Below the pieces are notes generated by a model. It ran no database searches, had not been told where the DNA came from, and worked only from the letters and a program-made list of their open reading frames with translations. DNA of 64,000 nucleotides from Escherichia coli (GTDB lineage Bacteria; Pseudomonadota; Gammaproteobacteria; Enterobacterales; Enterobacteriaceae), in NCBI RefSeq assembly GCF_036507355.1, contig NZ_AP027877.1. The stretch is one strand, 5' to 3'. Both the position numbers and the translations under genes were made by a program. Position 1 is the first letter of the stretch, and every line of letters starts with the position of its first letter. Positions 11,500 through 22,777 of this stretch are shown piece by piece.

Positions 11500-13647
11500 A
11501 TGAAAAAAGTCGTCACGGTTTGCCCCTATTGCGCATCAGGTTGCAAAATCAACCTGGTCGTCGATAACGGCAAAATCGTCCGGGCGGAGGCAGCGCAGGG
11601 GAAAACCAACCAGGGTACCCTGTGTCTGAAGGGTTATTATGGCTGGGATTTCATTAACGATACCCAGATCCTGACCCCGCGCCTGAAAACCCCCATGATC
11701 CGTCGCCAGCGTGGCGGCAAACTCGAACCTGTTTCCTGGGATGAGGCACTGAATTACGTTGCCGAGCGCCTGAGCGCCATCAAAGAGAAGTACGGTCCGG
11801 ATGCCATCCAGACGACCGGCTCCTCGCGTGGTACGGGTAACGAAACCAACTATGTAATGCAAAAATTTGCGCGCGCCGTTATTGGTACCAATAACGTTGA
11901 CTGCTGCGCTCGTGTCTGACACGGCCCATCGGTTGCAGGTCTGCACCAATCGGTCGGTAATGGCGCAATGAGCAATGCTATTAACGAAATTGATAATACA
12001 GATTTAGTGTTCGTTTTCGGGTACAACCCGGCGGATTCCCACCCAATCGTAGCGAATCACGTAATTAACGCTAAACGTAACGGGGCGAAAATTATCGTCT
12101 GCGATCCGCGCAAAATTGAAACCGCGCGCATTGCTGACATGCACATTGCACTGAAAAACGGCTCGAACATCGCGCTGTTGAATGCGATGGGCCATGTCAT
12201 TATTGAAGAAAATCTGTACGACAAAGCGTTCGTCGCTTCACGTACAGAAGGCTTTGAAGAGTATCGTAAAATCGTTGAAGGCTACACGCCGGAGTCGGTT
12301 GAAGATATCACCGGCGTCAGCGCCAGTGAGATTCGTCAGGCGGCGCGGATGTATGCCCAGGCGAAAAGCGCCGCCATCCTGTGGGGCATGGGTGTAACCC
12401 AGTTCTACCAGGGCGTGGAAACCGTGCGTTCTCTGACCAGCCTCGCGATGCTGACCGGTAACCTCGGTAAGCCGCATGCGGGTGTAAACCCGGTTCGTGG
12501 TCAGAACAACGTGCAGGGTGCCTGCGATATGGGCGCGCTGCCGGATACGTATCCGGGATACCAGTACGTAAAAGATCCGGCTAACCGCGAGAAATTCGCC
12601 AAAGCCTGGGGCGTGGAAAGCCTGCCTGCTCATACCGGTTATCGCATCAGCGAGCTGCCGCACCGTGCAGCGCATGGCGAAGTGCGTGCCGCGTACATTA
12701 TGGGCGAAGATCCGCTGCAAACTGACGCGGAGCTGTCGGCAGTACGTAAAGCCTTTGAAGATCTGGAACTGGTTATCGTTCAGGACATCTTTATGACCAA
12801 AACCGCGTCGGCGGCGGATGTTATTTTACCGTCAACGTCGTGGGGCGAGCATGAAGGCGTGTTTACTGCGGCTGACCGTGGCTTCCAGCGTTTCTTCAAA
12901 GCAGTTGAACCGAAATGGGATCTGAAAACGGACTGGCAAATCATCAGTGAAATCGCCACCCGTATGGGTTATCCGATGCACTACAACAACACCCAGGAGA
13001 TCTGGGATGAGTTGCGTCATCTGTGCCCGGATTTCTACGGTGCGACTTACGAGAAAATGGGCGAACTGGGCTTCATTCAGTGGCCTTGCCGCGATACTTC
13101 AGATGCCGATCAGGGGACTTCTTATCTGTTTAAAGAGAAGTTTGATACCCCGAACGGTCTGGCGCAGTTCTTCACCTGCGACTGGGTAGCGCCAATCGAC
13201 AAACTCACCGACGAGTACCCGATGGTACTGTCAACGGTGCGTGAAGTTGGTCACTACTCTTGCCGTTCGATGACCGGTAACTGTGCGGCACTGGCGGCGC
13301 TGGCTGATGAACCTGGCTACGCACAAATCAATACCGAAGACGCCAAACGTCTGGGTATTGAAGATGAGGCATTGGTTTGGGTGCACTCGCGTAAAGGCAA
13401 AATTATCACCCGTGCGCAGGTCAGCGATCGTCCGAACAAAGGGGCGATTTACATGACCTACCAGTGGTGGATTGGTGCCTGTAACGAGCTGGTTACCGAA
13501 AACTTAAGCCCGATTACGAAAACGCCGGAATACAAATACTGCGCCGTGCGCGTCGAGCCGATCGCCGATCAGCGCGCCGCCGAGCAGTACGTGATTGACG
13601 AGTACAACAAGTTGAAAACTCGCCTGCGCGAAGCGGCACTGGCGTAA
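11500..13647 (+). CDS. fdhF: formate dehydrogenase H (selenocysteine-containing molybdoenzyme), with in-frame UGA at codon 140
   Basis: Two track ORFs (11500-11919 and 11968-13647) are in the same frame, separated only by TGA at 11917-11919; N-terminal Cys cluster CPYCASGC; total 715 codons. Confidence 0.9.
11917..11960 (+). promoter_or_regulatory. selenocysteine insertion element (SECIS hairpin) immediately 3' of UGA-140
   Basis: UGACACGGCCCAUCGGUUGCAGGUCUGCACCAAUCGGUCGG forms the stem-loop known for fdhF. Confidence 0.7.
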
Positions 13648-13689: not shown

Positions 13690-13740
13690 TCCATTCGAAC
13701 TCTTTATACTGGTTACTCCCTACCCAATCGTATTATCAAA

Positions 13741-14430
13741 ATGAAAAAAATTATCGCATTGATGTTGTTTTTGACATTCTTTGCCCACGCCAACGACTCC
13801 GAGCCTGGCAGCCAGTATTTAAAGGCAGCAGAGGCCGGGGACCGACGCGCACAATATTTTCTTGCCGACAGCTGGTTTAGCTCCGGCGATTTGAGCAAAG
13901 CCGAATATTGGGCACAGAAAGCCGCCGACAGCGGTGATGCTGATGCCTGCGCGCTGTTGGCGCAGATCAAAATCACCAATCCGGTCAGTCTGGACTATCC
14001 ACAAGCAAAAGTTCTTGCAGAGAAAGCGGCGCAAGCGGGCAGTAAAGAAGGTGAAGTAACGCTGGCGCATATTCTGGTAAATACTCAAGCGGGTAAACCG
14101 GATTATCCAAAGGCGATTTCGCTGTTAGAAAACGCCTCGGAAGATCTGGAGAATGACTCCGCCGTCGATGCCCAAATGCTGCTTGGTTTGATTTACGCCA
14201 ACGGCGTGGGCATTAAGGCCGACGATGACAAGGCAACCTGGTATTTCAAACGCAGCTCTGCAATTTCCCGAACCGGTTATTCCGAGTACTGGGCGGGAAT
14301 GATGTTCTTAAACGGTGAAGAAGGTTTTATCGAGAAGAACAAGCAAAAGGCGCTGCACTGGTTGAACCTGAGCTGTATGGAAGGGTTTGATACCGGGTGT
14401 GAAGAGTTTGAAAAATTAACTAACGGTTAA
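13741..14430 (+). CDS. yjcO: Sel1-repeat periplasmic protein YjcO
   Basis: 229 aa ORF with signal peptide and repeated A-x-x-A-A-x-x-G Sel1/TPR-like units. Confidence 0.7.
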   Translation: MKKIIALMLFLTFFAHANDSEPGSQYLKAAEAGDRRAQYFLADSWFSSGDLSKAEYWAQKAADSGDADACALLAQIKITNPVSLDYPQAKVLAEKAAQAGSKEGEVTLAHILVNTQAGKPDYPKAISLLENASEDLENDSAVDAQMLLGLIYANGVGIKADDDKATWYFKRSSAISRTGYSEYWAGMMFLNGEEGFIEKNKQKALHWLNLSCMEGFDTGCEEFEKLTNG

Positions 14431-14600
14431 GGTAGGCCTGATAAGACGCGTTAAGCGTCGCATCAGGCGTTGATGTCGGATGCGGCGTAAACGCCTTATC
14501 CGACCTACAAAATCACGCTAAATCAGGCTATTGCGCTGTCTGACGTAGGCCTGATAAGACGCACCAGCGTCGCATCAGGCATCCACACATTGCCGGGGGA
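14431..14600. repeat. REP/BIME cluster (repetitive extragenic palindromes)
   Basis: Repeated GCCTGATAAGACGC...GCATCAGGC and GCCGGATGCGGCGTAAACGCCTTATCCGACCTAC motifs between convergent yjcO and gltP. Confidence 0.6.
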
Positions 14601-14619
14601 TATCCCCGGCAATCTTCAA

Positions 14620-15933
14620 TTATTGATCCGCAGTTTTATCAAATTTGCCCAGCACTTCACGCTCATAAGCCAGCGCCTTTTTGCGGTCAAATTTGTGTTC
14701 CCACTTGGCAATCACCAGCACCGCCAGCGCATTACCCACCACGTTCAGCGCAGTACGCGCCATATCGAGGATACGGTCAACACCGGCAATAAACGCCAGA
14801 CCTTCCAGCGGAATACCTACGCTACCCAGCGTTGCCAGCAACACCACAAACGACACGCCCGGCACGCCAGCAATCCCTTTCGAGGTCACCATCAGCGTCA
14901 GCACCAGAATGATTTCCTGCCAGATGGACAGGTCAATGCCATACAGCTGAGCGATGAAAATAGCGGCAATACTTTGATACAGCGTCGAACCATCAAGGTT
15001 AAAAGAGTAACCGGTCGGCACCACGAAGCTGGTGATCGACGCCGGTGCTCCGTAGGCTTCCATCTTCTCAATAATTCGCGGCAGTACGCTTTCAGAGCTG
15101 GCAGTGGAGTACGCCAGAATCAGCTCATCTTTCAGAATACGAATCAGGATCCAGACGCTTAACCCGCACAGGCGCGCCACAATTCCCAGCACTACCAGCG
15201 CGAAGAACAGAATGGCGAAATGCACCAGCAGCACCAGTTTCGCCAGTGGCCACAGAGAAGAGAAACCAAAGTTAGCCACCGTCACCGCAATCAGCGCAAA
15301 CACACCCACCGGCGCATAACGCATCACCATGTGAGTCACTTTAAACATGGTTTCAGAGATGGAGCGGAACACGGTCACCAGCGGTTCACGATGCGTCGCG
15401 GGCAGGGAGGAAAGCCCCAGACCAAACAGCACCGAGAAGAAGATGATCGGCAGCATTTCGCCTTTCGCCATCGACGCCACAATGTTCGTCGGCACCAGCG
15501 ACAAAATCGTGCCCATAATGCCGTGGGAACTGCTTTGTACCGCTTCCGTAGTGCTCTGATATTTCGAGATATCGACGGTCGCCAGCTGCGACATATCCAC
15601 CCCGGCACCGGGCTGGAAGACGTTCGCCAGAGTGATCCCCAAAATGATGGCGACGGTGGTGATCACCTCGAAGTAAATAATGGTTTTCGCGCCAATACGC
15701 CCGAGCTGTTTGGCATCACCCACACCCGCGATACCCACCACCAGCGTGGAGATCACAATCGGCACAACAATCATTTTGATCAGATGGATGAAGATATCAC
15801 CCGCCGGAGAGAGCAAATTGACGACCAGCCAGTCGCGGCTGTCGCTATGGTAGTGCAGGTAGCTTCCCAGGAGAATGCCCAGCACCATAGCAAACAGAAT
15901 CTGCCAGGCCAGGCTGAATTTTATATTTTTCAT
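14620..15933 (-). CDS. gltP: proton/glutamate-aspartate symporter GltP
   Basis: 437 aa multi-TM ORF matching remembered GltP. Confidence 0.9.
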   Translation of the reverse strand: MKNIKFSLAWQILFAMVLGILLGSYLHYHSDSRDWLVVNLLSPAGDIFIHLIKMIVVPIVISTLVVGIAGVGDAKQLGRIGAKTIIYFEVITTVAIILGITLANVFQPGAGVDMSQLATVDISKYQSTTEAVQSSSHGIMGTILSLVPTNIVASMAKGEMLPIIFFSVLFGLGLSSLPATHREPLVTVFRSISETMFKVTHMVMRYAPVGVFALIAVTVANFGFSSLWPLAKLVLLVHFAILFFALVVLGIVARLCGLSVWILIRILKDELILAYSTASSESVLPRIIEKMEAYGAPASITSFVVPTGYSFNLDGSTLYQSIAAIFIAQLYGIDLSIWQEIILVLTLMVTSKGIAGVPGVSFVVLLATLGSVGIPLEGLAFIAGVDRILDMARTALNVVGNALAVLVIAKWEHKFDRKKALAYEREVLGKFDKTADQ

Positions 15934-16274
15934 CAGAATAACTTCCTCAATGGAGCGCCGTTCCCCGTTCAGAAACGCGAGAACGTGACATACTGCCAGG
16001 GCATGAATTGTGTTGCGTTGGTTTGTAGACTTTTTTAACGCTTATGATCAGTATCATTTGCGCGGTATGTTGCGCAACCCTTTAACAACAGAGCTTTTCG
16101 CTGCATTAATGCATAATAACGCGAGTTTATGGCAGGATTAATGAATAACCATTTGTTATGGAAAGATTTTTATTTGTTTAATCTGCAATAATACTGATTA
16201 GTGATTATTTTTAGTATATGTTCATTCGATTATTTTTTATGCAGCTCAATAACATAATCTTCATCACCAGATGA

Positions 16275-16871
16275 TTAATCCGATCTCCGCTGCAACAATT
16301 TCGCCATATTAATCGACTCGACCAGCTGTGTCCGGTTGATCCGGGGTGAGTTGAGATCCATCACTTTTTGCCATAGTTCGATGGCTTGCGCGTAGTTCGC
16401 CTGCATAAACGCATCGGAAGCCAGCAGCATCAGAGCGGTGATTTCGTTAGAGTCCAGCGCGAGGGCTTTGTCGATCATTGCGCGAGTCTGGGCGGTCATA
16501 TGCTGGCTGGCCTGATAGTAGAGCACCGTCGCCAGCGCCGCATACAATTCAGCATTCTCACCACGTAGTTGCAACGCCTGACGGTACGCCAGCAGCGAAT
16601 TGCTGTAATCGTTTTGCCACAGATAGTACTCGCCCAGTAACGCCCACTGTTCGCTGTTTTGCGGATTAGCGCGGATTTTATCCTGCAATGCCTGAAGCTG
16701 CGCTTCCGGGGTTTGCTGGCTGGCAAACTGATGTAGCGGATCGCGCTGACGCTGATACTCCGCACGTACCGCCTGCCATTTTGGGCTTAACAGATAACTG
16801 CCGACACAGAGGAATACCATCAATATCGTGAGTGTTGTCAGCATTTTCACCGGTATTTGAGGCTGTTTCAT
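16275..16871 (-). CDS. nrfG: NrfG, TPR protein for NrfA heme lyase system
   Basis: Start taken at MKQPQIP within longer ORF; overlaps nrfF by 4 bp. Confidence 0.8.
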
Positions 16872-17251
16872 CGCTTTGCCCTCACTCGCCAGAGGATCAG
16901 TGCCATCAGCAGTAACAACACCACTGGCAGCGCCCACAACACCAGCGTCTGACCCGTTAACGGTGGGTTATAGCGAACAAAATCTCCGTAGCGTTCGGTC
17001 ATCCAGCCAATGATTTCGACTTCACTTTTCCCCTCCGCCACCATGCTGTAAACCTGATGGCGCATACTGACTGCCACCGGCGCGTTGGATTCCAGTAAGT
17101 TTTGATTCTGGCACTGCGGACAACGTAACTGGCTGGCAATATTTAACGCCTGTTGCTGTTGTTGCGGATTGGCGAATTGCCAGGTGTCTACAACCTGAGC
17201 GCGCGCAAAACAGGTAAATAACAGCAGTAGCGTGAGAAGCCCTTTATACAT
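16868..17251 (-). CDS. nrfF: NrfF (CcmH-like) cytochrome c maturation protein
   Basis: 127 aa ORF with CPQC thiol-redox motif. Confidence 0.8.
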
Positions 17252-18926
17252 CGCGCTTCTTCCCCCGCCATCCGCTTAACAATGCGCCTGCAATCATCAA
17301 CAATCCTCCCCCCCAGATCCAGCGCACACCGCTTTGTACATACAAACGAAAAGCGTAACGATCCGGCCCAGTTTTCTCCCCCATGACCGCATACCAGTCA
17401 TGGATGCCGTTCCAGCGAATTGACGGTTCCATCATTTGCTGACGGCGTGCTTCATAAAAACGCCGCTCCGGCGTCAGTTCACCAATACGTTGCTGATGGT
17501 CAAACAGTGCCACTATCGCTTTTTCGCTGGTGTAATTGCCTCTGGCTTGCAGATCGAGGCGCTCAAAACGGAAGGTGTATCCTGCCAGCGTCACCTGCTG
17601 ACCCAGCTGTAAATTCAGGCTGATTTCCTGACGGCTGACGCTGGAAACCACGACCCCAGCGGCAAATAACAGCACGCCCGCATGAGCTACCAGCGCCGGA
17701 AGCTGCACGCGTTTGCCAGAGACAAACGTCGCCAGCACAATCACCACCAACATCAACAGACCAAACGGTAACGTCGCGCGGTTAAAATACGGTGCGCCAA
17801 CGGAGAGGCGTCCCCAGCCCAGCAGGCCGTAAATCATCGGATAAAGCGTTCCCACCAGCACGATCAGTAGCACTGCGCAAAACAGCAACAGCGTAGCGAG
17901 GATTAACATTTCCCGCGATAACCCCGAAAAACGCACCGCCGGGCCACCGTCCCGCGCTCGCCAGCCATACAGAGCCAGAGACGCAAGGCTAATCAGTGCA
18001 AACAGACTGAACAACGGCACGGCGCGGACGTTATCCAGCGCGAACGCATGAACCGAAACCAGAATGCCAGAACGGACAATTAAGGTGCCCAGCAATGACA
18101 GCATCAGAGTAACTATCGCCAACAACAGCGACCAGTGGCGGAAAATCCCCCGCTGGCGTGTCAGGGATAAACTGTGCAGCAGCGCAGTGGCAGAAAGCCA
18201 GGGTAATAAAGAGGCGTTTTCCACCGGATCCCAGAACCACCAGCCGCCCCAGCCCAGTTCGCAATAGGCCCACCAGGAACCGAGGATGATCCCCGCAGTT
18301 AATGCGCTCCAGCCAGGTAACGCCCAGCGCCAGCAAATTCGGGCGCAGGCACCATCAAACTCGCCGCGCAGTAGACTCGCCAGCGCCACGCTCGCCGCTA
18401 CCATCAAACCGCCATAGCCAAGGTAAAGCAGCGGTGGATGAAAGATAAGACCGGGATGTTGCAGCATCGGATTGAGATCGCGGCCTTCGATTGCTGGTGG
18501 AAATATCCGCACGAAAGGATCGGACCACAGCACTACAAACAGTAGCAGTGCGGCGAGCATGAGAGATAAAACGGCTAACGTCAGCGGAAATAGCGGATCG
18601 GTTTGCTGCCGATAATGCCAGGCAAACAGCGCGCTCCAGGCGGAAAGCAGCAGAACCCAAAGCAGCAGCGAACCTTCATGACCACCCCATACCGCCGCCA
18701 GTTTGAGTTCCCACGACAGCAGGCTGTAGCTATGTTGGGCGACATAAATGACCGAGAAATCGCTGATGAGAAAACAATACGTCAGTACGCCAAAGGCGAG
18801 CAGCAGGAGCGCGAACTGTGCCAGAATGCCGATGCAAGTGAGTCGCATCATGGCAGGCCAGCGCAACCGCACTCCCGCGAAGGCCGTCAACGGGGTCAAC
18901 ACGTTGACCCCGAGACTTAACAACAA
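17244..18926 (-). CDS. nrfE: NrfE (CcmF-like) heme lyase
   Basis: 560 aa polytopic membrane ORF; operon position; start codon uncertain. Confidence 0.8.
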   Translation of the reverse strand: MLLSLGVNVLTPLTAFAGVRLRWPAMMRLTCIGILAQFALLLLAFGVLTYCFLISDFSVIYVAQHSYSLLSWELKLAAVWGGHEGSLLLWVLLLSAWSALFAWHYRQQTDPLFPLTLAVLSLMLAALLLFVVLWSDPFVRIFPPAIEGRDLNPMLQHPGLIFHPPLLYLGYGGLMVAASVALASLLRGEFDGACARICWRWALPGWSALTAGIILGSWWAYCELGWGGWWFWDPVENASLLPWLSATALLHSLSLTRQRGIFRHWSLLLAIVTLMLSLLGTLIVRSGILVSVHAFALDNVRAVPLFSLFALISLASLALYGWRARDGGPAVRFSGLSREMLILATLLLFCAVLLIVLVGTLYPMIYGLLGWGRLSVGAPYFNRATLPFGLLMLVVIVLATFVSGKRVQLPALVAHAGVLLFAAGVVVSSVSRQEISLNLQLGQQVTLAGYTFRFERLDLQARGNYTSEKAIVALFDHQQRIGELTPERRFYEARRQQMMEPSIRWNGIHDWYAVMGEKTGPDRYAFRLYVQSGVRWIWGGGLLMIAGALLSGWRGKKRDV

Positions 18927-18981
18927 CGCCAGAAAACCGACTTCAGGAAGGAATACGTCCAGAAACCACCTCTTTTCTGGC

Positions 18982-19938
18982 TTACGCCACCGTTAACTGC
19001 CCGGCGTAGAGAATGAAAAAACGCAGCATCAAGACGCCGACCAGGCTGGCCCCACACGCCGCCAGCACGGCAGGAATGCCGGAACTGCGATTGACCCACG
19101 GTTTGAGCAACATTGGTACAATCAACCCCAGCCCGGCGACACCAAGCCAGAACCACCACGTCCAGAAACCGCCGCCCAATGCCGCCACCAGCGCACGCAC
19201 TTTACCGTCATCGCCCAGCGCCAGACCGACAAAAAACGCCACCAGCAGGAAGATTTCACCCCATACCACGGGGATTTCCATCCGGTGAACAAAGTGCGCT
19301 TCCGTGGAATGCGGATTTTTGCGTTGGCGTATCGCCATGGCGATCAGCGCTACCGCCGCACCGGACGAGATGCCGGAGAAGAGGAACAGCACCGGCAGGA
19401 TCGGGTTATTGAGGAACGGATACGATTTCAGCGCCGACAGCAGAAAACCGGTATAAGCCCCCAACAACACCGCCAGCACCAGCATCAATGTTTCCAGTCC
19501 GCGATGAACGGGCGTCAGCAGGCTCAGAACCTTTTGCACGATCCCCAGCTTCGGCAACCAGCGTTGTTGCAGGGCAAGCAAATCATGTTCAAAGATTTTC
19601 GCCAGCCACAGCACCAGCACCACCATGTAAAGCTGAAACAGCATCACCCCCATCGACATCACCGAGGTAAAACTGTAGTGGAACATCAGCTTCCAGAAGG
19701 TCCACGGTCTTGTCAGGTGGAAGACGAGGATCAATAGACCGAGGATCACCGCGCCAGGTCCGACAATCAGCGTGGTGCGCAGCAACGTGCTGTCTGCACC
19801 GCCCGCCTGCGGGTAGAAGCGACGTAACAGCACAGCCAGCGTCACCAGACCAGCAGAAATACCAATCAAAAACAGGTAGATGGCAATCGGCCAGTCCCAC
19901 ACCAGTGATTCAAAATGAAATGCGGAAGTCTGCGTCAT
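18982..19938 (-). CDS. nrfD: NrfD, membrane quinol-oxidising subunit
   Basis: 318 aa multi-TM ORF. Confidence 0.85.
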   Translation of the reverse strand: MTQTSAFHFESLVWDWPIAIYLFLIGISAGLVTLAVLLRRFYPQAGGADSTLLRTTLIVGPGAVILGLLILVFHLTRPWTFWKLMFHYSFTSVMSMGVMLFQLYMVVLVLWLAKIFEHDLLALQQRWLPKLGIVQKVLSLLTPVHRGLETLMLVLAVLLGAYTGFLLSALKSYPFLNNPILPVLFLFSGISSGAAVALIAMAIRQRKNPHSTEAHFVHRMEIPVVWGEIFLLVAFFVGLALGDDGKVRALVAALGGGFWTWWFWLGVAGLGLIVPMLLKPWVNRSSGIPAVLAACGASLVGVLMLRFFILYAGQLTVA

Positions 19939-20606
19939 TGGCTCACCTCCCCGTATTTAAACGGTACGCGGTACAGCTTCGGTTTGGTTCCCAGCGCCAG
20001 CTTGTAGCGGTAAGTGGGCTTCTGGCGCAGCAGTTGCGAAATCTCACTGTTGGGATCGTCCAGATTGCCAAACGTCAGCGCCTTCGTCGGGCAAGCCTCA
20101 ACGCACGCGGGAAGCTTACCGGCCTGCAAATTGGTCTTACGGCAGAAATCGCATTTGTCCGCTGTCTTCGTGACCGGATGGATAAAGCGCACGCGGTACG
20201 GACAGGCGGCGATGCAGTACTGACAACCGACGCAGAGATCCGGATTAACATCGACAATCCCGCTAGCGGCATCACGAAAAGACGCACCGGTCGGGCAGAC
20301 GTCAACGCACGGCGCATGATCGCAGTGCTGGCAAGACTTACGGAAGAAGCGATATTTCACATCAGGAAATTCGCCCTGCGGCTCGCTACGAATAATCGTC
20401 AGGCGCGAGACGCCTTCCGGCACCTTGTTCACTTCCCGACAAGCATCCATACAGGCGGTACAGCCGATGCATAACGACTCGTCATGCACCATGCCGTAAC
20501 GTACCCCATTGATATTCAACGTTTTCGCCACCACGCGTCCTGCGGTGCCGCTGACGGCTGCCAGCACGCCGACGCCGGTGAGAAACTGGCGACGAGACCA
20601 GGTCAT
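19935..20606 (-). CDS. nrfC: NrfC, 4Fe-4S ferredoxin-type subunit
   Basis: 223 aa ORF with Tat-like N-terminus (RRQFL) and multiple CxxCxxCxxxCP clusters. Confidence 0.85.
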
Positions 20607-21175
20607 GGCTGCTCCTTAAGCAACGGAACAGACGCCGGGTTAAAGTTCGGATTGGTGCGCTGATCGCTGTGGCAATCGACGCAAATCTTAATCCGTCCTT
20701 TGTCACTTAACGTCTGCATCGTATCTTGCTGTGGATGCAGGGAATGGCAGCTGGCGCACGCCACTTTGGTTACGTGGACATCGTGCGGCCAGAACGCTTT
20801 TTGCAACTGTTCCGGCAGATGGCAGGACATACAGACGCTGTTCTGCTCTCCAACCTTGTACATCGGCTCGTTAAAGCGCATCACATCTTTCACCCCTTCG
20901 CGGTGTTGCGGTGATGGCTGGCCGTGACAGTTGGTGCAGGTGACCGGCAGTTTGTTATTCGGGTTGATAACGGAAGCATGTTTGCCATGCATACCTTCGG
21001 TATCTGGCTTATGACAGTCCAGACAGGCGGCATCCGGGTTACGCTGCTGGGTAACTTCGTAGCGATCATCAGATGCCTGCGCCGCAGGGGTAGCGGTAAT
21101 TCCGTTCAGGCTCCACAACAGGCCCGACGCCAGCACCCCGGCAGTTAATAACGAACGTAATACGCTCATATTCAC
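20603..21175 (-). CDS. nrfB: NrfB, pentaheme cytochrome c
   Basis: 190 aa ORF with five CxxCH motifs. Confidence 0.85.
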
Positions 21176-21213
21176 TCCATTGTGTTTTCCGCCCCTTGCG
21201 AGGCGGAACGGGG

Positions 21214-22692
<1,479 letters not shown>

Positions 22693-22777
22693 TTATTGTT
22701 TTTCACGACAGTAACCGCACCTACACTGTCATGACATTGCTCGCCCCTATGTGTAACAAATAACCACACTGTGAATG

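What the first reader, a model, noticed from the sequence alone, without database searches (positions are those of the whole stretch)
14431..14600. REP/BIME clusters mark several convergent gene ends
Repetitive extragenic palindromic units occur after yjcO/gltP (14431-14600), acs (about 25003-25070), plsB (about 57727-57850) and between lamB and malM (about 63090-63135). They are potential sites of gyrase/IHF binding and mRNA stabilisation, and can be confused with novel repeats or CRISPR-like elements.
Basis: partly seen in the sequence, partly recalled or inferred. Interest (0 to 1): 0.2.

Follow-up and report, generated by a model that had tools for sequence, protein, structure and literature searches.

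The report
Ordinary E. coli REP/BIME repeats
The four spots are textbook repetitive extragenic palindromes (REP/BIME elements) of Escherichia coli, seven hairpin units in all, and they are real but ordinary and already described, including this gltP-yjcO locus.

Summary
The window is E. coli chromosome (fdhF-yjcO-gltP ... acs ... plsB ... lamB-malM). It holds exactly seven REP units, all at the four stated places: three at 14432-14580, one at 25011-25045, two at 57739-57837 and one at 63099-63132. A REP-tail pattern finds 7 matches against 0.73 expected. A covariance model scores the seven at 40-59 bits and nothing else above 18. The hairpin is supported by compensatory changes.

Site 1 is a BIME-2 (Z2-Y-Z2) and site 3 is a BIME-1 (Y, L linker, short Z1-like unit). 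Sites 2 and 4 are single Y units left by deletion from larger BIME-2 arrays seen in other strains.

The 'convergent gene ends' framing is half right: acs-yjcH and lamB-malM are co-directional, intra-operon spacers.

Across strains the gltP-yjcO array runs from 1 to at least 13 REPs (11 in K-12), and some strains carry IS1397 in the loop of the third REP. The BIME-1 has the same length in every sampled genome. Salmonella and most Citrobacter have only one hairpin at the gltP-yjcO spot.

The functions are taken from the literature and were not tested here: 3'-UTR hairpins that protect mRNA and attenuate transcription, protein-binding sites, and RAYT and IS targets. Nothing here is new.

The parts
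14432..14468 (+). REP unit 1 of site 1, Z2 type. It reads 5'-GTAG-hairpin on the + strand; the stem is 14436-14468 and starts 5 nt after the yjcO stop codon (14428-14430).
   Evidence: -21.6 kcal/mol, z -6.8; 51.6 bits; aligned to the Z2 hairpin of Rfam naRNA4
14469..14474 (.). Short head-to-head linker (GTTGAT) between Z2 and Y, the S-type linker of a BIME-2.
   Evidence: BIME-2 definition in PMC3333891
14475..14508 (-). REP unit 2 of site 1, Y type (GTAG on the - strand). It has a compensated C-G to U-A change in the stem (GTCGGAT...ATCCGAC).
   Evidence: z -5.6; 59.1 bits
14509..14544 (.). 36-nt tail-to-tail linker of the BIME-2 unit. It is part of the 113-bp unit that is repeated 5.3 times in K-12.
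14545..14580 (+). REP unit 3 of site 1, Z2 type. Its loop (ACCA, 14563-14566) is where IS1397 is inserted in strain S51 and others, with CCA duplicated.
   Evidence: z -5.5; 54.4 bits; for the IS1397 junctions
14589..14613 (.). Non-REP GC-rich hairpin (ATTGCCGGGGG-ATAT-CCCCGGCAAT) 6 nt after the gltP stop (14620-14622, - strand). By position it is the counterpart of the single hairpin that forms the whole gltP-yjcO spacer in Salmonella and Citrobacter. It is probably the original 3'-end hairpin of gltP.
   Evidence: -19 kcal/mol, z -5.4; cross-species spacers; no T-run follows it, so the terminator scan does not call it
25011..25045 (-). Site 2: a single Y REP between the co-directional genes acs and yjcH. 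The stem starts 9 nt after the acs stop (24999-25001). Compared with most genomes it is the remnant of a Z2-Y BIME after loss of 68 bp between two TTGCCGGATGCG direct repeats.
   Evidence: z -5.1; 57.4 bits
57739..57772 (-). Site 3, Y-like REP of a BIME-1. It is degenerate: one G-A mismatch in the stem and GTAA instead of GTAG. The stem starts 12 nt after the plsB stop (57724-57726).
   Evidence: z -1.9; 51.1 bits
57773..57808 (.). Long L linker of the BIME-1. It contains an IHF-consensus-like CAATTTATTGAAT at 57785-57797 (- strand).
   Evidence: the 41-nt query centred on this linker, with 2-3 nt of each REP, matches a median of 5 places per E. coli genome; relaxed IHF pattern match; weak test
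57809..57837 (+). Site 3, short Z1-like REP of the BIME-1 (29 nt, GTAG at 57809-57812).
   Evidence: z -2.0; 40.5 bits
57847..57874 (.). Non-REP hairpin (core GCCGGATGATCATCCGGC, 57851-57868) followed by T6 on the + strand and by a T-rich tail on the - strand. It is the likely bidirectional intrinsic terminator shared by plsB and ubiA, and is separate from the BIME.
   Evidence: sequence; -16 kcal/mol, z -5.5. It is not flagged by the simple scan, probably because the stem extension consumes the T-run.
63099..63132 (-). Site 4: a single Y REP between the co-directional genes lamB and malM (both on the - strand). The stem is 63099-63128, 13 nt after the lamB stop (63142-63144), and there is no GTAG (CCCAG tail). 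It is chimeric: it has the left flank of the first Y and the right flank of the last Y of the K-12 Y-Z2-Y array.
   Evidence: (53.5 bits)

Best explanation
These are seven ordinary Escherichia coli REP units (palindromic units), organised as follows:
- Site 1 (yjcO/gltP): one BIME-2, Z2-S-Y-linker-Z2.
- Site 3 (plsB/ubiA): one BIME-1, Y, L linker, then a short Z1-like unit.
- Sites 2 and 4 (acs-yjcH and lamB-malM): two solitary Y units that are contraction products of BIME-2 arrays.

Shown here: their sequence class, hairpin structure, extragenic position, dispersed multi-copy nature, alternating orientation, unit-wise copy-number change between strains, use as an IS1397 target, and restriction of this BIME to the genus Escherichia.

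Inferred from published work on the same element classes:
(i) They are non-autonomous palindromes recognised and cut as single-stranded DNA by the REP-associated tyrosine transposase (TnpA_REP/RAYT), which needs the GTAG and the stem mismatch. BIME-2 arrays expand and contract by recombination between their direct repeats.
(ii) When transcribed into the 3' UTR of the upstream gene, the hairpins block 3'-to-5' exonucleases and partly attenuate transcription, in part through Rho. This favours the upstream gene in the tandem pairs (acs over yjcH-actP, lamB over malM) and both genes in the convergent pairs.
(iii) All four upstream stop codons lie 5-13 nt from a REP stem, so the hairpins may also lower translation of yjcO, acs, plsB and lamB by stalling terminating ribosomes.
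(iv) On DNA, the BIME-1 L linker is a likely IHF site and the BIME-2 a likely gyrase site.
For: Identity as REPs:
- 7 tail-motif matches against 0.73 expected.
- The covariance model separates the seven (40-59 bits) from everything else (18 bits or less).
- Imperfect hairpins with an internal bubble.
- 4 of 13 pairs show compensatory changes among the seven units.
- On 59 distinct REPs from 40 sources, 96.9% of cells are paired, against 32-49% when partners are slid, and 9 of 13 pairs change on both sides.

Y and Z2 labels: the Rfam naRNA4 model is by definition a Y plus Z2 unit of REP325. It aligns end to end at 14435-14505 with 75.2 bits, above the gathering score of 59.5.

BIME classes: definitions in PMC3333891. 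The K-12 allele of site 1 is a 113-bp unit repeated 5.3 times at 97% identity.

Repeat count at gltP-yjcO by strain:
| REPs | spacer (bp) |
| 1 | 77 |
| 3 | 177 |
| 3 | 189 |
| 5 | 303 |
| 7 | 416 |
| 11 | 641 |
| at least 13 | 827 |

Other evidence:
- The site-3 L-linker query (41 nt, with 2-3 nt of each flanking REP) recurs at a median of 5 places per genome. The whole BIME-1 recurs at 40 or more places per genome. Its length is the same in all sampled genomes.
- Deletion origin of the solitary units.
- IS1397 sits in the REP loop with a CCA duplication. IS1397 is published as PU-specific.
- The gltP-yjcO BIME of K-12 was itself used as a TnpA_REP cleavage substrate, oligo B319.
- REP roles as 3'-UTR stabiliser and terminator, and the 60/40 convergent/tandem split.
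- The stop-codon proximity rule (fewer than 16 nt): citing Liang et al. 2015.
- Density: 584 REPs in K-12 gives about 8 per 64 kb; 7 were found.
Against: No function was measured here. None of the REPs is followed by a T-run, so they are not intrinsic terminators by pattern. Genome-wide, terminal REPs were not associated with longer mRNA half-lives, so stabilisation depends on context.

Three units are degenerate, which weakens any claim that they are still RAYT substrates. The site-3 Y unit has a stem mismatch and GTAA. The site-4 Y unit has no GTAG and folds with z -1.5. The Z1-like unit folds with z -2.0.

The IHF-like match uses a relaxed consensus that occurs 13 times in the window against 5.9 expected. 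Four of four REPs lying within 15 nt of a stop codon is not significant if about half of all REPs do so.
Confidence: 0.93

Rival explanations
1. The site-1 element is a gene for a nucleoid-associated non-coding RNA of the naRNA4 family. Its transcript would bind HU and bridge DNA cruciforms to condense the chromosome.
For: Rfam RF02564 (naRNA4) matches 14435-14505 on the - strand over the full model at 75.2 bits, above the gathering score of 59.5. That strand is the one that read-through from gltP would transcribe. Qian et al. 2015 proposed this role for the equivalent units of REP325.
Against: The Rfam model is simply a Y plus Z2 BIME-2 unit. It also hits every other REP site in the window at lower scores, and the opposite strand of the same site at 48.8 bits. 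No promoter of its own is evident. The window has only one such unit, and some strains have none (1-REP allele). A 2026 preprint from the same laboratories reports that REP325 and naRNA4 do not measurably compact the nucleoid and act instead as a local 3'-UTR regulator.
Confidence: 0.04
2. The elements are purely selfish or neutral DNA: RAYT-dispersed palindromes tolerated in spacers where they do no harm, with no contribution to expression of the neighbouring genes.
For: Copy number at three of the four sites varies freely between strains, from 1 to at least 13 REPs. Salmonella and most Citrobacter manage with a single hairpin at the gltP-yjcO spot. Several units are decaying. The same spacer was colonised independently by genus-specific REP types.
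Against: The BIME-1 at plsB-ubiA has the same length in every sampled genome and is covered at 80% or more in 5423 of 5426 genomes. A BIME is retained at gltP-yjcO in all five Escherichia species representatives examined. Published deletion and RNA-seq data show local effects of REPs on neighbouring genes.
Confidence: 0.25
3. They are gene-specific intrinsic terminators or a CRISPR-like or otherwise novel repeat array, not members of a dispersed family.
For: They are GC-rich hairpins at gene ends. In K-12 the site-1 element is a regular array with a 113-bp period.
Against: No T-run follows any REP. Separate non-REP hairpins next to gltP and between plsB and ubiA fill the terminator position. 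The same sequences recur at 40 or more places per genome. In the K-12 array the whole unit, 'spacers' included, is 97% identical between copies, so there are no unique spacers. The window itself has no tandem array.
Confidence: 0.01

Closest known systems
BIME-2 of E. coli, specifically the gltP-yjcO BIME of K-12 MG1655 (oligo B319 in Ton-Hoang et al. 2012) and REP325 (yjdM-yjdN)
   Same: The same locus and the same Z2 and Y units. It has a short head-to-head linker and a 36-nt tail-to-tail linker, alternating orientation, and GTAG on all three units. The unit matches the naRNA4 (REP325) model over its full length.
   Different: The window carries 1.3 units (3 REPs), against 5.3 units (11 REPs) in K-12. 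The linker between Y and Z2 is 7 nt shorter than in REP325.
BIME-1 (also described as RIP/RIB elements, the IHF-binding class)
   Same: Site 3 has a Y unit and a short Z1-like unit in opposite orientation, separated by a 36-nt L linker. That linker is itself a dispersed motif and contains an IHF-like sequence. The element is single-copy and stable in length across E. coli, as the class is described.
   Different: The Y unit is degenerate (GTAA, one stem mismatch). IHF binding was not tested. The L consensus itself could not be read from a held paper, so the match to it rests on recurrence and on my own recollection of the motif.
REPINs and RAYT systems of Pseudomonas; subterminal hairpins of IS200/IS605
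   Same: Short imperfect palindromes with a conserved flanking tetranucleotide, recognised as single-stranded DNA by a Y1 HUH transposase, and occurring as inverted pairs.
   Different: The sequence family is different. The E. coli RAYT gene is not in this window, so the association could not be examined here.
CRISPR arrays
   Same: Regularly spaced palindromic repeats in the expanded alleles.
   Different: There are no unique spacers (the whole 113-bp unit repeats at 97%). Adjacent palindromes alternate in orientation. The repeats are dispersed at hundreds of loci. There is no array at all in this window.

Membership tests
REP (palindromic unit) of E. coli | 30-40 nt imperfect palindrome able to form a hairpin with an internal mismatch or bubble | tested here: met
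   All seven units are 29-37 nt and fold as a hairpin with an unpaired position in the stem. Across 59 distinct REPs, 96.9% of cells are paired and 9 of 13 pairs show compensatory changes.
REP (palindromic unit) of E. coli | Conserved GTAG tetranucleotide next to the foot of the hairpin | tested here: met
   Present in 5 of 7 units. The site-3 Y unit has GTAA and the site-4 Y unit has CTGG.
REP (palindromic unit) of E. coli | Extragenic position, at 3' ends of genes (between tandem or convergent genes) | tested here: met
   All units lie between stop codons, or between a stop codon and the next start codon. Two sites are convergent and two are tandem.
REP (palindromic unit) of E. coli | High-copy dispersed repeat in the genome | tested here: met
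   The 124-nt site-3 element matches a median of 40 places per genome, which is the per-record cap. The site-1 region matches a median of 8 places per genome even in megablast mode.
BIME-2 | Z2 and Y units in alternating orientation, with a short head-to-head linker | tested here: met
   Unit orientations are +, -, + with a 6-nt linker at 14469-14474.
BIME-2 | Occurs as tandem copies whose number varies between strains | tested here: met
   1 to at least 13 REPs at this locus in 9 strains. 113 bp x 5.3 copies in K-12. 1 to at least 10 in other Escherichia species.
BIME-2 | Bound and cleaved by DNA gyrase | not testable with these tools
   Literature attribute only (Espeli and Boccard 1997, listed).
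BIME-1 | One Y and one Z1 unit separated by a conserved long linker L; single copy | tested here: met
   Y at 57739-57772, a 36-nt linker, then a short unit at 57809-57837. The 41-nt linker query recurs at a median of 5 places per genome. The length is invariant in sampled genomes.
BIME-1 | IHF binding site in L | tested here: inconclusive
   CAATTTATTGAAT at 57785-57797 fits a relaxed IHF pattern, but that pattern has 13 matches in the window against 5.9 expected. Binding cannot be tested here.
Rfam RF02564 naRNA4 | Score at or above the curated gathering score | tested here: met
   75.2 bits against a gathering score of 59.5, covering model positions 1-77. The second-best site, 14548-14611, scores 51.9 bits and fails.
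Rfam RF02564 naRNA4 | Expressed as a discrete RNA that binds HU | not testable with these tools
   No expression data are available here. The proposed role is itself disputed.
RAYT (TnpA_REP) substrate | GTAG plus the stem mismatch, needed for binding; cleavage at a C|T in the inverted partner or linker | not testable with these tools
   The sequence prerequisites are present at site 1. Cleavage was shown in vitro for the K-12 allele of this locus, not for this allele.
CRISPR array | Direct repeats separated by unique spacers of similar length | tested here: not met
   No array in the window. In K-12 the entire 113-bp unit repeats at 97% identity.
Intrinsic (Rho-independent) terminator | GC-rich hairpin followed directly by a T-run | tested here: not met
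   The scan finds no terminator-like sites at any of the four loci, and none of the REPs is followed by a T-run.

The most novel reading that the evidence does not exclude
BIME-2 copy number at gltP-yjcO (1 to at least 13 REPs), and the contracted single-REP alleles at acs-yjcH and lamB-malM, could act as heritable, fast-mutating 'dials'. They would set strain-specific expression of glutamate uptake, acetate scavenging and maltoporin without touching promoters or coding sequence. The REP stems 5-13 nt after the four stop codons would add translational down-tuning. This extends an idea already proposed in a 2026 preprint to named loci and alleles. It is not a new kind of element.
Probability: 0.2. 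Interest if true: 0.3.

Novelty: already known. Interest (0 to 1): 0.07.

Why it matters
For a genome scan, the value is in clearing these four places. They are known repeats and should not be reported as novel repeats, CRISPR-like arrays or new small-RNA genes, even though one scores above the Rfam threshold for naRNA4.

The comparison gives a clean illustration of REP biology at one locus:
- the ancestral single hairpin in Salmonella and Citrobacter;
- a BIME present in all five Escherichia species representatives examined, so probably acquired early in the genus;
- unit-wise expansion and contraction between strains;
- repeated independent colonisation of the same convergent spacer in other genera;
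- targeting by IS1397.

If the copy-number alleles do tune gltP, acs or lamB expression, that would be of modest interest to people studying regulatory diversity in E. coli.

Tried and rejected
Separate head and tail patterns were used instead. The 10-nt head pattern alone is not specific (35 matches against 21 expected).
- I looked for curated REP features in the RefSeq K-12 record; none are listed there.
- The simple terminator scan found nothing at any site. It also missed the obvious hairpin-plus-T6 between plsB and ubiA, so its negatives are weak. The absence of a T-run after each REP was therefore read directly from the sequence.
- Liang, Rudd and Deutscher 2015, Clement et al. 1999 and Boccard and Prentki 1993 are not held. 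Their claims are cited second-hand from papers that are held.
- Neither the 2015 naRNA4 paper nor the 2026 REP preprint names any of the four loci in its main text.
- I tried to identify the source strain. No complete E. coli genome exceeds about 99.1% identity over 13700-25500, and none of the top hits shares the site-2 allele.
- The CRISPR-like, novel-repeat and intrinsic-terminator readings were considered and rejected (see the rival explanations).
- The naRNA4 'gene' reading was rejected as the main explanation, because the Rfam model is just a BIME-2 unit and hits all REP sites.
- My strict REP regex found REPs only in Escherichia. Reading the longer spacers directly, and the covariance model, showed genus-specific REPs in several other genera, so the regex result was not taken as absence.

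Full report
**What the window is.** The region around the finding matches the E. coli chromosome with the gene order fdhF-yjcO-gltP. The other three places lie at acs-yjcH, plsB-ubiA and lamB-malM. The window runs in the opposite direction to the MG1655 record. ORF coordinates:

| Gene | Coordinates | Strand |
|---|---|---|
| yjcO | 13741-14430 | + |
| gltP | 14620-15933 | - |
| acs | 23043-25001 | + |
| yjcH | 25131-25448 | + |
| plsB | 55243-57726 | + |
| ubiA | 57881-58753 | - |
| malM | 62071-63000 | - |
| lamB | from 63142 | - |

- Reading the four places shows the familiar GCC(G/T)GATGCG...CTTATC(C/A)GGCCTAC palindromes.
- The tail motif with up to two mismatches occurs seven times in 64 kb, against 0.73 expected, and all seven are at the four stated loci.
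- The seven units align with 76% mean column identity.
- Five fold much better than shuffled sequence (z -5.1 to -6.8). The two units after plsB and the one between lamB and malM are weaker (z -1.5 to -2.0).
- Four of the 13 stem pairs already show compensatory changes among the seven. One is the G-C versus U-A pair that separates Y from Z units. Another is a compensated C-G to U-A change in the Y unit at 14475-14508.
- A covariance model built from the seven and run without filters returns them at 40.5-59.1 bits. Nothing else scores above 18 bits, and the best of the rest are mirror images on the opposite strand.
- On a wider set of 59 distinct REPs gathered from 40 sources, 96.9% of cells pair, against 32-49% when partners are slid, and 9 of 13 pairs change on both sides. 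That alignment is fitted to the model, so it leans towards the structure.

**Anatomy of site 1 (14432-14580).** The order is a Z2 unit, a 6-nt linker, a Y unit in the opposite orientation, a 36-nt linker, and a second Z2 unit. This is the BIME-2 layout as defined in PMC3333891. The Y and Z2 labels have tool support. The Rfam model naRNA4 is by definition one Y plus one Z2 hairpin of REP325. It aligns end to end to 14435-14505 on the minus strand at 75.2 bits, above its gathering score of 59.5, with only a 7-nt shorter linker. The stretch 14589-14613 is a different, non-REP hairpin 6 nt after the gltP stop.

**Anatomy of site 3 (57739-57837).** A Y-like unit, a 36-nt linker and a short 29-nt Z1-like unit make up the BIME-1 layout.
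- A 41-nt query centred on the linker, with 2-3 nt of each flanking REP, recurs at a median of five places per E. coli genome, so the L linker appears to be a dispersed motif in its own right.
- The linker contains CAATTTATTGAAT, which fits a relaxed IHF consensus. That pattern is common enough that the match is weak evidence.
- A separate hairpin with T6 at 57847-57874 is the likely plsB/ubiA terminator.

**Anatomy of sites 2 and 4.** Each is a single Y unit (25011-25045 and 63099-63132).

Only yjcO/gltP and plsB/ubiA are convergent pairs. acs-yjcH and lamB-malM are co-directional genes within operons. This is normal: about 60% of E. coli REPs lie between convergent genes and about 40% between tandem genes. 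The density is also normal. K-12 has 584 REPs, which is about eight per 64 kb; seven were found here.

**Variation within E. coli.** The gltP-yjcO spacer differs between strains by whole units:

| Strain | REPs | Spacer (bp) |
|---|---|---|
| 2014C-3051 | 1 | 77 |
| an O157:H7 strain | 3 | 177 |
| this window | 3 | 189 |
| YPE3 | 5 | 303 |
| SLK172 | 7 | 416 |
| MG1655 | 11 | 641 (113 bp x 5.3 copies at 97% identity) |
| SSGNw1 | at least 13 | 827 |

- Strain PMV-1 has a decayed version.
- In strain S51, and judging by the same 3.4-kb two-piece alignment in at least six other genomes among the top 15 hits, an IS1397-family element sits exactly in the loop of the third REP. CCA is duplicated at the junctions. 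IS1397 is published as specific for palindromic units of BIMEs.
- At acs-yjcH, most sampled genomes carry 68 bp more: a half Y, a Z2 and the full Y. The window's allele is what remains after loss of the segment between two TTGCCGGATGCG direct repeats. One strain has four REPs.
- At lamB-malM, K-12 has Y-Z2-Y and another strain has seven REPs. The window has one chimeric Y carrying the left flank of the first copy and the right flank of the last.
- The BIME-1 at plsB-ubiA has the same length in every sampled genome that aligns in full, and is covered at 80% or more in 5423 of 5426 genomes.

This is the published behaviour of the two classes: BIME-2 is tandem and variable, BIME-1 is single.

**Variation between species.** A degenerate DNA pattern for the GltP tail retrieved 80 loci from species representatives across Enterobacteriaceae.
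- The convergent gltP/yjcO arrangement is present in 53 of them.
- In Salmonella and most Citrobacter the spacer is 46-55 nt. In many other genera it is 33-91 nt. In the Salmonella and Citrobacter spacers read in full it is a single hairpin of the form TTGCCGGAT...ATCCGGCAAT. That hairpin corresponds in position and flanks to the window's non-REP hairpin at 14589-14613.
- All five Escherichia species representatives (including E. albertii, E. whittamii and the E. coli representative) carry Z2/Y units between that hairpin and yjcO, numbering from 1 to at least 10. The BIME is therefore probably old within the genus, while its copy number is fluid.
- The same spacer has independently acquired genus-specific REP arrays in some Citrobacter, Pseudenterobacter, Raoultella and Pluralibacter. 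This fits convergent spacers being favoured landing sites.

**How it most likely works.**

Shown here: the sequence family, the hairpin, extragenic 3'-end placement, multi-copy dispersal, alternating orientation, unit-wise expansion and contraction consistent with recombination between direct repeats, and use as an IS target.

Inferred from the literature:
- TnpA_REP recognises the GTAG and the stem mismatch on single-stranded DNA and cuts at C|T sites in the inverted partner or the linker. It cut the K-12 gltP-yjcO BIME at four linker sites in vitro.
- Five of the seven units keep GTAG. The two that lack it (57739-57772 and 63099-63132) are predicted not to be bound.
- As RNA, REPs act as context-dependent 3'-UTR elements that block decay of the upstream message and attenuate read-through, partly through Rho. 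Tandem pairs show upstream-biased expression and convergent pairs show higher expression of both genes.
- None of the REPs has a T-run, so they are not intrinsic terminators by pattern.
- The REP stem begins 5, 9, 12 and 13 nt after the stop codons of yjcO, acs, plsB and lamB. REPs closer than 16 nt are reported to lower translation through ribosome stalling (citing Liang et al. 2015, which I could not read). About half of all REPs are reported to meet this criterion, so four of four is not remarkable.
- IHF binding at BIME-1 and gyrase binding at BIME-2 are literature attributes and were not tested here.

**Rivals.**
- Reading site 1 as an naRNA4 gene rests only on the Rfam score. The model is a generic BIME-2 unit that hits every REP site in the window and both strands of site 1. 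The nucleoid-condensing role has also been contradicted by later work from the same groups.
- A purely selfish or neutral reading fits the free copy-number variation and the REP-free state in Salmonella. It is harder to square with the species-wide constant length of the BIME-1 and with published local effects. I keep it as a substantial minority view.
- The CRISPR-like, novel-repeat and intrinsic-terminator readings are excluded.

**Verdict.** The finding is real, correctly named, half mis-framed, and entirely ordinary. The locus at the given coordinates is itself in the literature. Novelty: already known. Interest: low.

Noticed in passing
L002 (E. coli S51) 1562-2993; corresponds to window 14564-14566: An IS1397-family IS3-like element is inserted exactly in the loop of the third REP of the gltP-yjcO BIME, with CCA duplicated at both junctions. 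The same 3.4-kb two-piece alignment appears in at least seven of the top 15 genomes. The transposase is annotated as a pseudogene in S51.
   Followed up: partly
window 25002-25045 and 63099-63132: The window's alleles at acs-yjcH and lamB-malM are the minimal ones. Nearly all sampled complete genomes carry 68 bp more at acs-yjcH. At lamB-malM many carry about 92 bp more, though some share the window's length. Both window alleles look like deletions between direct repeats (TTGCCGGATGCG at site 2; two Y copies at site 4).
   Followed up: yes
window 13700-25500: No complete E. coli genome among 5,426 is closer than about 99.1% over this 11.8 kb. The nearest at different sub-regions belong to different strains (O145:H28 here; S51 and DSM 103246 at plsB). 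The source lineage is therefore not closely represented, or the region is mosaic.
   Followed up: partly
window 57776-57816 (+): There is a weak Rfam hit to ES036 (CssrF) at 27 bits, below its gathering score of 37.6, lying on the L linker of the BIME-1. That Rfam 'sRNA' family may in fact be the BIME-1 linker motif.
   Followed up: no
window 32280-32420 (+) and 11912-11966 (+): The sRNA sraL scores 151.5 bits, and the fdhF selenocysteine insertion element SECIS_2 scores 87.1 bits. Both are expected for this region of E. coli.
   Followed up: no
L044, L080 (Kluyvera), L019 (Enterobacter cloacae), L067 (Leclercia): gltP-yjcO spacer: In these genera the same spacer is occupied by a different palindromic repeat (CCCTCTCCC...GGGAGAGGG with GGGTGAGGG...CCCTCACCC) rather than by REPs.
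   Followed up: no
window 63055-63078 and 25066-25084: There are further small non-REP hairpins in the same spacers: GGGGC-TTTC-GCCCC between the REP and malM, and CTCCC-ATAA-GGGAG upstream of yjcH. They could be attenuators or processing sites within the operons.
   Followed up: no
window 14510-14530: A 10-nt mini-duplication (AAATCACGCT x 2.1) sits inside the 36-nt BIME-2 linker (TRF score 35).
   Followed up: no
H29 (NZ_CM135829.1, labelled DH5alpha): A record labelled DH5alpha shows the short allele at gltP-yjcO (388-bp span against 500 in the window) and is 4.83 Mb long. Other K-12 records have the long allele, so the label or the assembly may be unreliable.
   Followed up: no
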